Source: Pseudobdellovibrionaceae bacterium (lineage in GTDB: Bacteria; Bdellovibrionota; FAC87; UBA2466; JACKAF01). From it: a stretch of 64,000 nucleotides of DNA. Shown piece after piece: positions 9,973 to 47,502 of the stretch. Each line of letters begins with the position of its first letter. Position 1 is the first letter of the stretch. Under the pieces are notes generated by a model that searched no databases, was not told where the DNA came from, and saw nothing but the letters and a program-made list of their open reading frames with translations. Both the position numbers and the translations under genes were made by a program. The DNA lies in NCBI GenBank assembly GCA_020635235.1, contig JACKAF010000001.1, positions 92,743 through 156,742 on the forward strand, given 5' to 3'.

Positions 9973-10007
9973 TTTCGGGCGCCAAGAGTTATTTTGAGTG
10001 GCCTTTT

Positions 10008-10094
10008 GGAGAGGTGGCTGAGTGGTTGAAAGCGGCGGTCTTGAAAACCGTTGTCCCCGCAAGGGGACCGGGGGTTCGAATCCCTCCCTCTCCG
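10008..10094 (+). tRNA. tRNA-Ser (TGA), long variable arm, CCA not encoded
   Basis: GGAGAGG acceptor paired with CCTCTCC, D-loop AGTGG, anticodon loop CTTGAAA, GTTCGAATC. Confidence 0.95.
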
Positions 10095-10125
10095 GTGTTT
10101 AAGGTGATTCGTTCTCTTTTAAGAA

Positions 10126-46442: not shown

Positions 46443-46458
46443 TCCAGGCCCCGTTTGG

Positions 46459-46487
46459 TTGCTTTTCTACTGCATTCGAAATAGGAT
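46459..46487 (+). promoter_or_regulatory. Stable-RNA-type sigma70 promoter TTGCTT-N17-TAGGAT
   Basis: Followed by GC-rich discriminator GGCTCCCC, tRNA begins at 46500. Confidence 0.6.
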
Positions 46488-46499
46488 GGCTCCCCATTA

Positions 46500-46591
46500 G
46501 GAGAGGTGGCCGAGTGGCTGAAGGCGGCGGTTTGCTAAACCGCTGTAGGGTTAACCCCCTACCGGTGGTTCGAATCCACTCCTCTCCGCCA
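46500..46591 (+). tRNA. tRNA-Ser (GCT), CCA encoded
   Basis: GGAGAGG/CCTCTCC acceptor, GCGGT-TTGCTAA-ACCGC anticodon arm, long variable arm, GTTCGAATC. Confidence 0.96.
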
Positions 46592-46715
46592 GAGTTCATG
46601 GTGATTCGTTCCCTCCGCTTTCGCTTCGGGGTCGAATCCACTCCTCTCCGCCAGAGTTCATGGTGATTCGTTCCCTCCGCTTTCGCTTCGGGGTCGAATC
46701 CACTCCTCTCCGCCA
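46570..46715 (+). repeat. 62-bp tandem repeat: three copies of the last 22 nt of tRNA-Ser(GCT) separated by two identical 40-nt spacers
   Basis: TCGAATCCACTCCTCTCCGCCA at 46570, 46632, 46694; spacer GAGTTCATGGTGATTCGTTCCCTCCGCTTTCGCTTCGGGG. Confidence 0.95.
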
Positions 46716-46806
46716 GTTAGTTCCTTCCCTTTTTCGAATAACTTTGACATGCCACATCAAATGGTTTTAGTCGGTGTTCGTTGTTTCAATAAGGGAGACT
46801 CTACAA

Positions 46807-47502
46807 ATGAAAAAACTACTGATTGTTCTTGTGGCAGCGCTTTGCCTGGCCACTTTCGCAGACGAACCTAAAACAGATTTGGAAGCCGTGCTGGCAAAAG
46901 TCGAAGGCAAGAGCGGCTATGTTGTCGACGTATATTCCTCAGAAAAACTACAATCCCCCAAATTTCAGCACTTCACTGGAACGTGGGAAGATTTCTTCGA
47001 AGGCGTCGAAATAGACGGCCGCTACCTTTACCGGGTAAAAGCGTATCACAGTGTCACACCCAACGTGCTTCTCTACGTGAAAGCGGGAGACAAGGTGGTT
47101 AAATTCGTGGTGCCGGAAGATCTTAGCGCCGAAAAAATCACGCTTCTCAATCGAGGCAAAGAAGTCGCACGCACTGAAACCCGCGAGGTCAAAGCAGGAG
47201 CCACAGGCGATGCCGGCCTGGACGCCATCAATCAGGCCCGAGCTGCGCGAGGTATTCCGCCCATCCAGTGGGATAGTGGTTTCGCCGCCGTTTCGCGGGA
47301 AAATAACCGATTGGGCGGTCGTCACAGGTACCCGGGAAATGGCTACCAAACCTGGTCCGGCTCTTCGAGCCCGCAAGGGGCGGTGAACATGTGGCTGAGC
47401 AACAAGTACTACAACTCGCATGGAGTCATTATCCTGAACCGCAACATCACCCGTGGGGGCACCTACTCTGACGGCTATGGAACCACGTTCTCCGGCCGCT
47501 AG
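46807..47502 (+). CDS. Secreted protein with C-terminal CAP/SCP-like domain
   Basis: Signal peptide, GGGAG RBS, INQARAARGIPPIQWD...AVNMWLS...H..IIL. Confidence 0.65.
   Translation: MKKLLIVLVAALCLATFADEPKTDLEAVLAKVEGKSGYVVDVYSSEKLQSPKFQHFTGTWEDFFEGVEIDGRYLYRVKAYHSVTPNVLLYVKAGDKVVKFVVPEDLSAEKITLLNRGKEVARTETREVKAGATGDAGLDAINQARAARGIPPIQWDSGFAAVSRENNRLGGRHRYPGNGYQTWSGSSSPQGAVNMWLSNKYYNSHGVIILNRNITRGGTYSDGYGTTFSGR

What the first reader, a model, noticed from the sequence alone, without database searches (positions are those of the whole stretch)
46570..46715. Tandem array that regenerates the tRNA-Ser(GCT) 3' end three times
Seen: exact 62-bp period; 22 nt of T-loop/acceptor plus CCA alternate with an identical 40-nt spacer containing a small hairpin (CTCCG-N9-CGGGG) and the 12-mer shared with the other tRNA-Ser trailer. 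No integrase is adjacent, and orphan-rich genes follow. Established: tRNA 3' duplications mark integration sites, and E. coli tyrT carries repeats that include the tRNA 3' end. Inference: repeated insertion of a minimal 40-bp element or slippage amplification; processing could release ~62-nt CCA-ended RNAs.
Basis: partly seen in the sequence, partly recalled or inferred. Interest (0 to 1): 0.65.

Follow-up and report, generated by a model that had tools for sequence, protein, structure and literature searches.

The report
Hairpin-joined repeats of tRNA-Ser tail
The last 22 bases of a serine tRNA gene are copied three times behind the gene. Each copy is joined by a small hairpin whose arm matches the tRNA's T-loop, and the same construction sits behind at least 17 different tRNA genes in one small family of Bdellovibrio-like bacteria. 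It appears to be an undescribed, copy-number-variable way in which tRNA gene ends get duplicated.

Summary
tRNA-Ser(GCT) lies at 46500-46591. Its last 22 nt occur at 46570, 46632 and 46694, separated by two identical 40-nt spacers (period 62, 100% identity).

The array is not unique. In this genome, 7 of 37 tRNA genes carry the same construction. So do at least 8 in a sister species, 2 seen in a third MAG, and 4 in the sister genus, where the hairpin tips differ.

Every extra copy starts at T-loop position 55. It is preceded by a module: GTG, then 6 nt complementary to T-loop 56-61, then TTC, a small GC hairpin, and GG. The complementary arm changes with the T-loop (104/114 matches, P<1e-5), and every change is fully compensatory.

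The module was found only behind tRNA genes. It was absent from about 400 other genomes of the phylum, from viral contigs and from JGI metagenome contigs. There is no integrase, Y1 transposase or reverse transcriptase nearby, and only one Xer-like recombinase was found in the whole assembly.

An independent contig from another sample has two copies instead of three. The sister species has one copy plus a module remnant.

Best reading: a T-loop-mimicking hairpin module causes template switching or slippage, giving a young minisatellite. A miniature mobile element or an RNA function is not excluded.

The parts
46500..46591 (+). tRNA-Ser(GCT) gene with encoded CCA. Its last 22 nt (46570-46591, from T-loop position 55) are repeat copy R1.
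   Evidence: ARAGORN; Rfam RF00005, 57.1 bits; sequence.
46592..46631 (+). Spacer S1 (40 nt). It consists of 9 nt of proximal trailer (GAGTTCATG), then GTG plus left arm GATTCG (46603-46608), TTC, the long GC-rich hairpin tip CCTCCGCTTTCGCTTCGGG, and G.
   Evidence: Exact matching; fold; comparison with the other arrays.
46632..46653 (+). R2, the second copy of the tRNA 3' end. It starts at T55 and lacks T54 and the 5' strand of the T-stem. CGAATC (46633-46638) forms the right arm of hairpin 1.
   Evidence: hairpin folds.
46654..46693 (+). Spacer S2, identical to S1 (left arm GATTCG at 46665-46670).
46694..46715 (+). R3, the third copy of the tRNA 3' end. CGAATC (46695-46700) forms the right arm of hairpin 2.
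46716..46742 (+). Decayed older module: G, TTAGTTCC (degenerate left arm), TTCCC (start of the tip), TTTT, and TCGAAT (46734-46739, a T-loop-like right arm), followed by unrelated DNA. It is orthologous to the module remnant behind tRNA-Ser(GCT) in the sister species.
   Evidence: Alignment A1; sequences. The reading as a decayed module is inference.
10103..10114 (+). Solitary left arm GGTGATTCGTTC, 8 nt after tRNA-Ser(TGA) (10007-10095). It is a module remnant without duplication of the tRNA end.
46807..47502 (+). First downstream gene, encoding a CAP-domain secreted protein or lipoprotein. It is syntenic in the sister species, so no island lies between the tRNA and this gene.
   Evidence: Pfam PF00188.

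Best explanation
The array is a young, copy-number-variable minisatellite. It was created at the tRNA gene by a lineage-specific 'T-loop hairpin module', not by an integrating island. The module sits in the tRNA trailer and reads (A)AG-GTG + 6 nt complementary to T-loop 56-61 + TTC + a small GC-rich hairpin tip built from T-loop words (TTCG, TCGA) + GG. It is followed by a second copy of the gene from T55 onward. Module and T-loop copy together form a two-tier hairpin.

Proposed mechanism. (1) The module reaches a trailer by template switching or gene conversion from another tRNA locus, anchored on the nearly universal T-loop sequence. The nascent strand leaves the trailer at a variable point, copies a donor module up to its T-loop-like right arm, and re-anneals on the recipient's own T-loop. 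This re-copies T55 to the 3' end plus some trailer. (2) Once a right arm identical to the T-loop lies 40-60 bp downstream, slipped-strand mispairing or unequal sister exchange adds or removes units. This first occurs between these short direct repeats and then between whole 62-bp units, which gives 2 or 3 copies in different samples. (3) Only the tRNA-proximal copy is under selection, so distal copies and modules decay. No dedicated enzyme is needed. The absence of SbcCD from the whole order may make such hairpins tolerable.

Shown here: the anatomy, the recurrence, the covariation, the copy-number difference, the decayed distal remnant, the mosaic between loci, and the failure to detect mobile-element enzymes. 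Inferred: the template-switch and slippage steps, the neutrality, and how the complementary left arm is first made.
For: The anatomy recurs with an invariant 5' boundary at T55 and the junction ...TTC-tip-GG|T55. It occurs at 7 tRNAs in this genome, at least 8 in G001, 2 in MAG HKST-UBA01 and 4 in sister genus G002 with other tips. In the own genome the module occurs only behind tRNA genes.

The left arm tracks the T-loop across 8 T-loop classes: 104/114 matches, 13/19 perfect, permutation P<1e-5. On the module alignment, 95% of cells are paired, 4 pairs have compensatory double changes, there are no single-sided changes, and 0/500 shuffles reach the observed value. This is the signature of copied, DNA-level complementarity.

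Hairpins are predicted on both strands and as RNA. Units are 100% identical. Independent contigs show 2 copies (SRR776449) versus a branch point implying 3 or more (SRR7638773). The orthologous locus in G001 has one copy plus a module remnant, and G000 keeps a decayed module distal to the three copies. tRNA-Lys(TTT) shows the same pattern of intact proximal and decayed distal copies across three genomes.

There is exchange between loci: the G001 Ser-GCT trailer is 30/35 identical to the G000 Ser-GGA spacer.

In G000, no Y1 transposase and no RVT_1 were found, there is one Xer-like tyrosine recombinase, and GIY-YIG occurs only in UvrC-like ORFs. There were no hits in viral contigs. Neighbouring genes are ordinary and syntenic. 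SbcD is absent in 24/24 genomes of the order.
Against: No step of the mechanism was observed directly. Simple slippage predicts arrays that end in module plus a short right arm. This fits Ser-GCT, Ser-GGA and Lys-TTT, but not Thr-CGT, Val-GAC, Ala-CGC, Met or Gln-CTG, where the last copy is followed by native trailer. Those need the donor template-switch variant, which looks equally like an insertion with a long target duplication.

The model does not explain how a left arm perfectly matched to rare T-loop classes (CGAACC, CGATTC, CAAATC) first arises. It also does not explain why the T.T mismatch and T.G wobble next to the tip are invariant, since copying would have made them Watson-Crick.

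G000 and G001 are only about 80% complete, so an enzyme could have been missed. SbcD is absent from the whole order, whereas arrays are confined to one family. The copy-number difference rests on k=31 contigs, not on reads.
Confidence: 0.5

Rival explanations
1. A miniature, non-autonomous mobile element of about 25-40 nt (AAGGTG + guide-like arm + hairpin + GG) is inserted site-specifically at the T-loop by an unidentified trans-acting enzyme. Widely staggered cuts (T54|T55 on one strand, 1-50 nt past the tRNA end on the other) are filled in to give the long target duplication. The arm complementary to the T-loop serves target recognition.
For: The same conserved element lies behind at least 17 different tRNA genes in 4 genomes. 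It has an exact 5' insertion point and a variable 3' limit of the duplication. Orthologous loci differ in presence or absence (Val-GAC, Asn, Gln-CTG, Gly-CCC). At Thr-CGT, Val-GAC, Met and Ala-CGC the structure is exactly R-insert-R-native trailer. The element's left flank AAGGTGAYTCG is shared between unrelated tRNAs and species. Unchecked notes from this scan describe analogous units in CPR bacteria, DPANN archaea and Clostridia.
Against: No candidate enzyme was found. In G000 there is no Y1 or RAYT transposase, no reverse transcriptase, one Xer-like recombinase, and no small GIY-YIG protein. A fixed element cannot carry an arm that matches eight different T-loop classes unless the arm is re-templated at each insertion. 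No free copies occur outside tRNA trailers, and none occur in viral contigs.
Confidence: 0.22
2. The hairpin-plus-tRNA-tail units are selected RNA elements of the pre-tRNA. They could act as a 3' protective or processing hairpin, as a device that competes with or senses T-arm folding, or as a source of CCA-ended small RNAs or decoys. In this reading the duplication is maintained for dosage.
For: The hairpins are stable as RNA (-12 to -18 kcal/mol, z down to -3.9). A U.G wobble is invariant, and the G002 variants (GUC/GGU) pair only as RNA. The units lie in the tRNA transcription unit, and no terminator-like site was found between the tRNA and the array. In E. coli, rtT RNA is made from the tyrT repeats (bioRxiv 10.1101/2024.07.17.603846, read).
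Against: Copy number and even presence vary between close relatives, and distal copies decay. There are no single-sided (G-C to G-U) changes in the stem. The extra copies lack the 5' acceptor strand needed for tRNA-like end processing. There is no U-run after the hairpin, so it is not an intrinsic terminator. No Rfam family matches. No expression data could be obtained.
Confidence: 0.12
3. The repeats are ordinary attL/attR scars of tyrosine-integrase elements (prophages or islands) that integrated in the T-loop sublocation and were later deleted down to 40 bp.
For: The direct repeats start in the T-loop and run to the 3' end, as at class II tRNA integration sites (for example Ms6, PMC1762012; Islander, PMC4383910). 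Two other arrays in the genome (Leu-TAA, Val-CAC) start at the anticodon stem, which is the other classical sublocation.
Against: Only 32-75 bp lie between the repeats at every one of at least 17 loci. The junction lacks one T of the 7-nt T-loop, so it is not a conservative exchange. The same hairpin occurs at all junctions. There is no integrase nearby and only one Xer-like recombinase in the assembly. Flanking synteny is intact, and viral contigs gave no matches.
Confidence: 0.03
4. The array is an assembly artefact: a collapsed or expanded repeat in a MAG.
For: The genome is a MAG (79% complete). Two short-read contigs of the same species break at the tRNA. Raw reads could not be inspected.
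Against: Independent Logan contigs from other runs contain R-S-R with identical flanks, or start exactly at the expected branch node. The same architecture appears in four separately assembled genomes.
Confidence: 0.02

Closest known systems
E. coli tyrT/tyrV downstream repeats (about 178-bp units; rtT RNA, Rfam RF00391; tpr)
   Same: Tandem repeats lie directly behind a tRNA gene, and each contains the 3'-terminal segment of that tRNA. They lie inside the tRNA transcription unit (my knowledge of Rossi/Egan/Landy-era work; the tyrT operon with rttR and tpr is mentioned in bioRxiv 10.1101/2024.07.17.603846).
   Different: There is no sequence or structure match to RtT. The unit is 62 nt, not 178. 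There is no ORF. Here the same junction hairpin recurs at many different tRNA genes, and its arm covaries with the T-loop. tyrT is a single locus.
attL/attR partial tRNA duplications made by tyrosine integrases, T-loop sublocation (Williams 2002 classification, from memory; Islander PMC4383910; Ms6 PMC1762012; fragments reviewed in PMC9897764)
   Same: The direct repeat begins in the T-loop and runs through the tRNA 3' end. The gene-proximal copy keeps the tRNA intact while the displaced copy decays.
   Different: The repeats are separated by 32-75 bp of hairpin, not by a kb-scale element. There is no integrase. The junction is one nucleotide short of a conservative exchange. The units are tandemly amplified.
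Slipped-strand tandem duplication and quasipalindrome template-switch mutagenesis (Ripley; Lovett and co-workers; from memory)
   Same: Short direct repeats a few tens of bp apart, plus a hairpin, are the classical substrates. The predicted outcomes are perfect tandem units, copy-number variation and fully compensatory arm changes, and all three are seen here.
   Different: Those are sporadic mutations at arbitrary sites. Here one conserved module recurs specifically at tRNA T-loops across a bacterial family.
REP/BIME elements mobilised by RAYT (Y1) transposases
   Same: Both are small imperfect palindromes in intergenic DNA with a conserved GT(A/G)G-like head (here GTG), often clustered.
   Different: No Y1 transposase was found in G000. 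The module is found only behind tRNA genes, and one arm is the tRNA's own sequence. REPs are dispersed and have fixed arms.

Membership tests
Integrase-made att duplication at a tRNA gene (genomic island or prophage scar) | Direct repeat consisting of the tRNA 3' segment, starting in the T-loop or anticodon loop | tested here: met
   R starts at T55 and runs to CCA, three times.
Integrase-made att duplication at a tRNA gene (genomic island or prophage scar) | Integrated element (kb scale) with a tyrosine or serine integrase gene between or next to the repeats | tested here: not met
   40 bp lie between the repeats. No integrase was found among the ten ORFs scanned, 41.8-52.9 kb. One Xer-like recombinase is present in the whole assembly, about 128 kb away. 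Synteny with G001 is intact.
Integrase-made att duplication at a tRNA gene (genomic island or prophage scar) | Conservative exchange: both junctions keep the full overlap (T-loop) sequence | tested here: not met
   All junction copies read GG-TCGA, lacking one T of GGTTCGA.
tyrT-type RtT repeats (Rfam RF00391) | Tandem repeats behind the tRNA that include its 3' end | tested here: met
tyrT-type RtT repeats (Rfam RF00391) | Match to the RtT covariance model | tested here: not met
   cmscan at gathering threshold and at E<=10 returns only tRNA and noise.
REP/RAYT palindromic elements | Cognate Y1 (RAYT) transposase in the genome | tested here: not met
   PF01797 has 0 matches in G000; weak IS200-like hits occur in G001 and G002 only. 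G000 is 79% complete.
REP/RAYT palindromic elements | Many dispersed intergenic copies with fixed sequence | tested here: not met
   The module was found only behind tRNA genes; the single other hit lies in coding-looking sequence.
Minisatellite / VNTR | Head-to-tail near-identical units | tested here: met
   TRF: 100% identity, period 62.
Minisatellite / VNTR | Copy number differs between strains or samples | tested here: met
   There are 2 R copies in Logan contig L333 (SRR776449), 3 in the window, and 1 in sister species G001. Caveat: these are contigs, not reads.
Intrinsic (Rho-independent) terminator | GC-rich hairpin followed immediately by a U-run | tested here: not met
   The hairpin is followed by CACTCCTCTCC, and the scan found no terminator in the array.
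CRISPR-like array | Identical repeats separated by different spacers; cas genes | tested here: not met
   The spacers are identical, and the ten neighbouring ORFs scanned include no cas genes.

The most novel reading that the evidence does not exclude
The module could be a member of a previously undescribed class of protein-less (or unknown-enzyme) miniature elements that home to the T-loop of tRNA genes. Homing would work by base pairing of a re-templated 5' arm and would duplicate the T55-to-3'-end segment. If the analogous units noted elsewhere in this scan (CPR bacteria, DPANN archaea, gut Clostridia; unchecked) are the same kind of thing, this would be a widespread, overlooked mode of tRNA-gene parasitism or turnover.
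Probability: 0.25. Interest if true: 0.85.

Novelty: new variant of a known kind. Interest (0 to 1): 0.6.

Why it matters
tRNA gene ends are regarded as stable landing pads whose partial duplications mark integrated islands. Here partial duplications arise without any island or integrase. They arise repeatedly, at an exact nucleotide of the T-loop, through a tiny hairpin whose arm is matched to each tRNA.

If this is a template-switch process, it is a clean natural example of sequence-directed structural mutation at essential genes. It would also be a source of false 'att sites' and pseudo-tRNA calls in island-finding and annotation pipelines. If it is a miniature element, it would be a new kind of tRNA-targeting selfish DNA.

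Either way, the extra 3' ends can compete with the real one during pre-tRNA folding. Such arrays may therefore carry a cost or a regulatory effect on tRNA supply in these predatory-type bacteria.

Tried and rejected
1. Genomic-island att scar: rejected. There is no integrase, only 40 bp lie between the repeats, and synteny is intact.
2. REP/RAYT: no Y1 transposase in G000, and the module occurs only behind tRNA genes.
3. Retro-duplication through RNA: no RVT_1 in G000 or G001, and copies behind genes without encoded CCA lack CCA and include trailer. The template is therefore not mature tRNA.
4. Mini GIY-YIG nuclease cassette (a lead from scan note e1-1101603): GIY-YIG occurs only in about 600-aa UvrC-like ORFs.
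5. Minihelix idea (trailer supplies a 5' acceptor strand): true only for tRNA-Arg(TCG), GGGCGGT; not general.
6. SbcCD loss as the specific cause: SbcD is absent from the whole order, so this is only permissive.
7. Phage origin: 0 hits in viral contigs with two patterns.
8. Wider distribution:
   - The motif scan of 400 genomes of the phylum gave only chance hits outside the family, and so did a tip-independent palindrome scan.
   - The genome-contig scan gave chance CDS hits plus G001 and HKST-UBA01.
   - The metagenome scans gave 0 hits and 2 unrelated hits.
10. Same-species short-read contigs found through the upstream ORF end at the start of the tRNA and say nothing about copy number. Look-ups of the downstream protein by two start codons found nothing until a cluster member was used. 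The P0003 contig could not be fetched.
11. Literature searches found no description of hairpin-joined short-range tRNA 3' duplications.

Full report
OBSERVATION

The window contains tRNA-Ser(GCT) at 46500-46591 with an encoded CCA. Tandem Repeats Finder reports 46570-46716, period 62, 2.4 copies, 100% identity and no indels. Exact matching gives:
- R = TCGAATCCACTCCTCTCCGCCA at 46570, 46632 and 46694.
- S = GAGTTCATGGTGATTCGTTCCCTCCGCTTTCGCTTCGGGG at 46592 and 46654.

R begins at T-loop position 55. The copies lack T54 and the 5' strand of the T-stem, so they are not tRNA genes. The 12-mer GGTGATTCGTTC recurs 8 nt after tRNA-Ser(TGA), at 10103-10114.

THE ARRAY IS ONE OF MANY

I read the trailers of all 37 ARAGORN tRNA calls in the window's assembly (2.6 Mb, 11 contigs, 79% complete). 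The same construction occurs behind Ser-GCT (x3), Ser-GGA (x3 plus a degenerate fourth), Asn-GTT (x2), Ala-CGC (x2), Gln-CTG (x3, diverged), Lys-TTT (x2) and Arg-TCG (x2). Periods range from 51 to 74 bp.

Two further arrays (Leu-TAA x3, Val-CAC x2) start at the anticodon stem and have no hairpin.

In all seven arrays the extra copy starts at T55. It is preceded by: GTG (often AAGGTG), then 6 nt, then TTC, then a small GC-rich hairpin tip, then GG. The tips are CCTTCGGG, GCTTCGC, TCGC-NNN-GCGA, or a long form CCTMCGCT..CGCTTCGGG as at Ser-GCT. They are built from T-loop words (TTCG two or three times, TCGA).

The 6 nt are the reverse complement of T-loop 56-61. The module and the following T-loop copy therefore fold into a two-tier hairpin:
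- As RNA, -12 to -18 kcal/mol, with z down to -3.9.
- As DNA, -6 to -8 kcal/mol on either strand.

The '12-mer' is its left arm.

COVARIATION

I compared 19 independent loci from four genomes, covering 8 T-loop classes. Six of them are CGAATC/GATTCG, CGAGTC/GACTCG, CGAACC/GGTTCG, CAAGTC/GACTTG, CGATTC/GAATCG and CAAATC/GATTTG. The left arm matches its own tRNA's T-loop at 104 of 114 positions and is perfect at 13 loci. None of 100,000 permutations reached either value.

On an alignment of ten short-tip modules, 95% of cells are paired, 4 pairs show double (compensatory) changes in 10 cells, and no pair shows a single-sided change. In this alignment the long tip of one row was replaced by the short one; only the stem columns of that row are native. 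For percentage paired, number of double-changed cells and covariation score, 0 of 500 shuffles reached the observed value.

Changes that are all-or-none Watson-Crick fit copied DNA better than slow RNA-level compensation. In contrast, one T.G wobble and one T.T mismatch next to the tip are invariant.

DISTRIBUTION

The motif CGTTCSCTTCGSGGTCGA occurs 11 times in G000 and 5 times in the sister species G001. In 38 other relatives it occurs 0-1 times, and every such hit has one mismatch.

Two scans of 400 genomes of the phylum gave tRNA-linked hits only in G000 and G001: the tip motif and a tip-independent palindrome, GTGAYTCG-N6-40-GGTCGARTC. Every other hit I inspected was a chance match away from tRNAs.

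I read all 44 tRNAs of G001. They show:
- Arrays at Ala-CGC, Arg-TCG, Gly-CCC (5-6 copies), Leu-TAG (x3), Lys-CTT, Met, Thr-CGT and Val-GAC.
- Decayed copies at Lys-TTT, Gly-TCC and Ser-TGA.
- Left-arm-only remnants at Gln-TTG and Ser-GCT.

A scan of one genome per species (GTDB) added a third genome, MAG Bdellovibrionales HKST-UBA01, with arrays at tRNA-SeC and tRNA-Lys.

In the sister genus (G002), 32 tRNAs were read. His-GTG, Val-TAC, Lys-CTT and Ser-TGA carry the same architecture with different, longer tips and 10-nt complementary arms. The phenomenon is therefore family-wide with genus-specific tips.

Viral contigs gave no hit with two patterns. JGI metagenome contigs gave none and two unrelated hits. 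In G000 the module is found only behind tRNA genes, and the tmRNA trailer has none.

HISTORY OF THIS LOCUS

In G001 the orthologous tRNA-Ser(GCT) has the same upstream small membrane protein and the same downstream CAP-domain gene. It has a single 3' end followed by GTTTCGCTGGCTACTGTTTG-GTGATTCG-TTCCCTACGCTT, then unrelated sequence.

In G000, the DNA after the third copy (GTTAGTTCC-TTCCC-TTTT-TCGAAT-AAC..TTTGAC, 46716-46742) aligns with that remnant. An old module was therefore probably already present in the common ancestor. G000 has since added two identical units on the tRNA side.

The same pattern of intact proximal and decayed distal copies is seen at tRNA-Lys(TTT) in three genomes.

The first 36 nt of the G001 Ser-GCT trailer align to the G000 Ser-GGA spacer with 30 of 35 aligned positions identical. 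This shows exchange between loci that share the T-loop and the module.

The G001 Ser-GCT gene itself has a damaged T-stem (37.8 bits versus 57.1).

INDEPENDENT DATA AND COPY NUMBER

I therefore fetched contigs from other public assemblies that encode near-identical copies of the downstream CAP protein.

- Logan contig L333 (SRR776449) runs from nt 14 of the tRNA through R-S-R into the same downstream DNA. It has two 3' ends and one spacer, and it crosses the k=31 branch node without a break.
- L332 (SRR7638773) begins exactly at the first 31-mer after that node, as expected if 3 or more copies create a loop.
- A Logan contig at the Arg-TCG array likewise starts just after its branch node.

The array is therefore real, and its copy number most likely differs between samples (2 versus 3), with 1 in the sister species.

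NO MOBILE-ELEMENT MACHINERY

The ten surrounding ORFs encode acetyl-CoA synthetase, a hybrid kinase, a GT4 glycosyltransferase, a DUF308-like protein, a CAP-domain protein, MscS, an acyltransferase, a dehydrogenase, a caspase-domain protein and a LOG-family protein.

Whole-assembly searches of G000 gave:
- No Y1 transposase.
- One Xer-like tyrosine recombinase, about 128 kb away.
- GIY-YIG only in two UvrC-like ORFs.
- No reverse transcriptase.

SbcD is absent above the cut-off in all 24 genomes of the order that were searched. This may make hairpins tolerable, but it is not specific to the family.

MECHANISM (COMMITTED VIEW, CONFIDENCE ABOUT 0.5)

The module's right arm is a direct repeat of the true T-loop, 40-60 bp upstream. 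Such short, close direct repeats bridged by a hairpin are classical substrates for slipped-strand duplication (established knowledge).

1. I propose that modules spread between tRNA trailers by template switching or gene conversion anchored on the near-universal T-loop. This would explain the shared left flank AAGGTGAYTCG, the mosaics, the variable 3' limit of the duplicated segment, and the requirement that donor arm and recipient T-loop match.
2. Slippage or unequal exchange then amplifies and contracts the unit. This would explain the 100% identity and the 2/3-copy variation.
3. Distal copies decay.

The anatomy, recurrence, covariation, copy-number difference, decay and lack of detected enzymes are shown. 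The switching steps are inferred.

Three weak points remain:
- Arrays whose last copy is followed directly by native trailer look just as much like an insertion with a long target duplication.
- The origin of perfectly matched arms for rare T-loop classes is unexplained.
- The invariant mismatches beside the tip are unexplained.

RIVALS

- A miniature element with an unknown enzyme (0.22) explains the exact insertion point and the presence/absence polymorphism. It lacks an enzyme and needs re-templating of its arm.
- A selected RNA role (0.12) is compatible with the stable RNA hairpin and the G.U pairs. Against it are the turnover, the decay and the absence of tRNA-like ends on the extra copies. 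No expression data could be obtained.
- Classical integrase scars (0.03) and an assembly artefact (0.02) are effectively excluded.

COMPARISON WITH KNOWN SYSTEMS

The closest described cases are the following.
- The E. coli tyrT repeats, which also reiterate the tRNA 3' end. They are a single 178-bp locus with no similarity to this array.
- Integrase att duplications at the T-loop sublocation (PMC1762012, PMC4383910, PMC9897764). These require an integrase and an element.

Full-text searches found no description of short-range, hairpin-joined, T-loop-matched duplications recurring across many tRNA genes.

Earlier notes of this scan had seen the Lys, Arg and Ser-GGA arrays of this genome and reached a similar description. 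Notes on other genomes report look-alike units in CPR, DPANN and Clostridia. I treated these notes as leads. The in-genome ones I re-derived independently. The cross-lineage ones are untested.

VERDICT

I rate it a new variant of known tRNA-end duplication, of moderate to high interest.

Noticed in passing
G000 C5:214737-215011 (-) and C5:237675-237841 (-): tRNA-Leu(TAA) is followed by two more perfect copies of its 3' part starting at the anticodon-stem 3' strand (period 97). tRNA-Val(CAC) is followed by one such copy (period 94) with an expanded anticodon-loop remnant. Neither has the hairpin module. The Leu-TAA array is also present in G001.
   Followed up: partly
G001 loci L109 and L122 (trailers of tRNA-Gln(CTG) and tRNA-Leu(AAG)): The same 34-nt sequence GGTACCACGTTCCCTTTGGCACATCCCTGTGGAT lies 6-8 nt after two unrelated tRNA genes. 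It may be the end of another tRNA-targeting repeat or mobile element.
   Followed up: no
G001 L039:283-370 (C10:83072-83159): The orthologous tRNA-Ser(GCT) of the sister species has a T-stem 3' strand that no longer pairs (TCGAATCAATTCTCTCCGCCA; Rfam 37.8 bits versus 57.1). It is a possible casualty of module-mediated exchange, or an assembly error.
   Followed up: partly
order-level relatives G000-G023: SbcD (TIGR00619) is not detected above the cut-off in any of 24 genomes of this order, although 13 of 14 control genomes give a match (8 of 14 over the cut-off). The lineage may lack the SbcCD hairpin nuclease.
   Followed up: partly
G296 loci L052 and L074: A near-identical 60-nt GC-rich hairpin-containing repeat (..GGAGATTCGGACGGCGGGAGRCGCCCCTTCGGGGTCRAGTCCCTTCACGCCCCC..) occurs at two places in another Bdellovibrionota genome. 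It is not next to a tRNA.
   Followed up: no
G000 C6:128972-129044: ARAGORN calls a second tRNA-Lys(TTT) whose 3' end (..GTGCATTCTTTGAGTGAGTA) has no T-loop consensus. It is probably a false positive.
   Followed up: no
window 46460-46489: TTGCTT-N17-TAGGAT lies just upstream of the tRNA and is a plausible own promoter (8 of 12 to the sigma-70 consensus, below the scan's threshold). It follows a terminator-like hairpin of the upstream 96-aa ORF at 46444-46468.
   Followed up: no
G001 C13:7050-7574 (L257): A phage-type tyrosine recombinase ORF (415 aa open frame) lies about 4 kb upstream of the tRNA-Met array of G001. A similar gene exists in G002, so it may be a conserved chromosomal gene and not an island integrase.
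   Followed up: no
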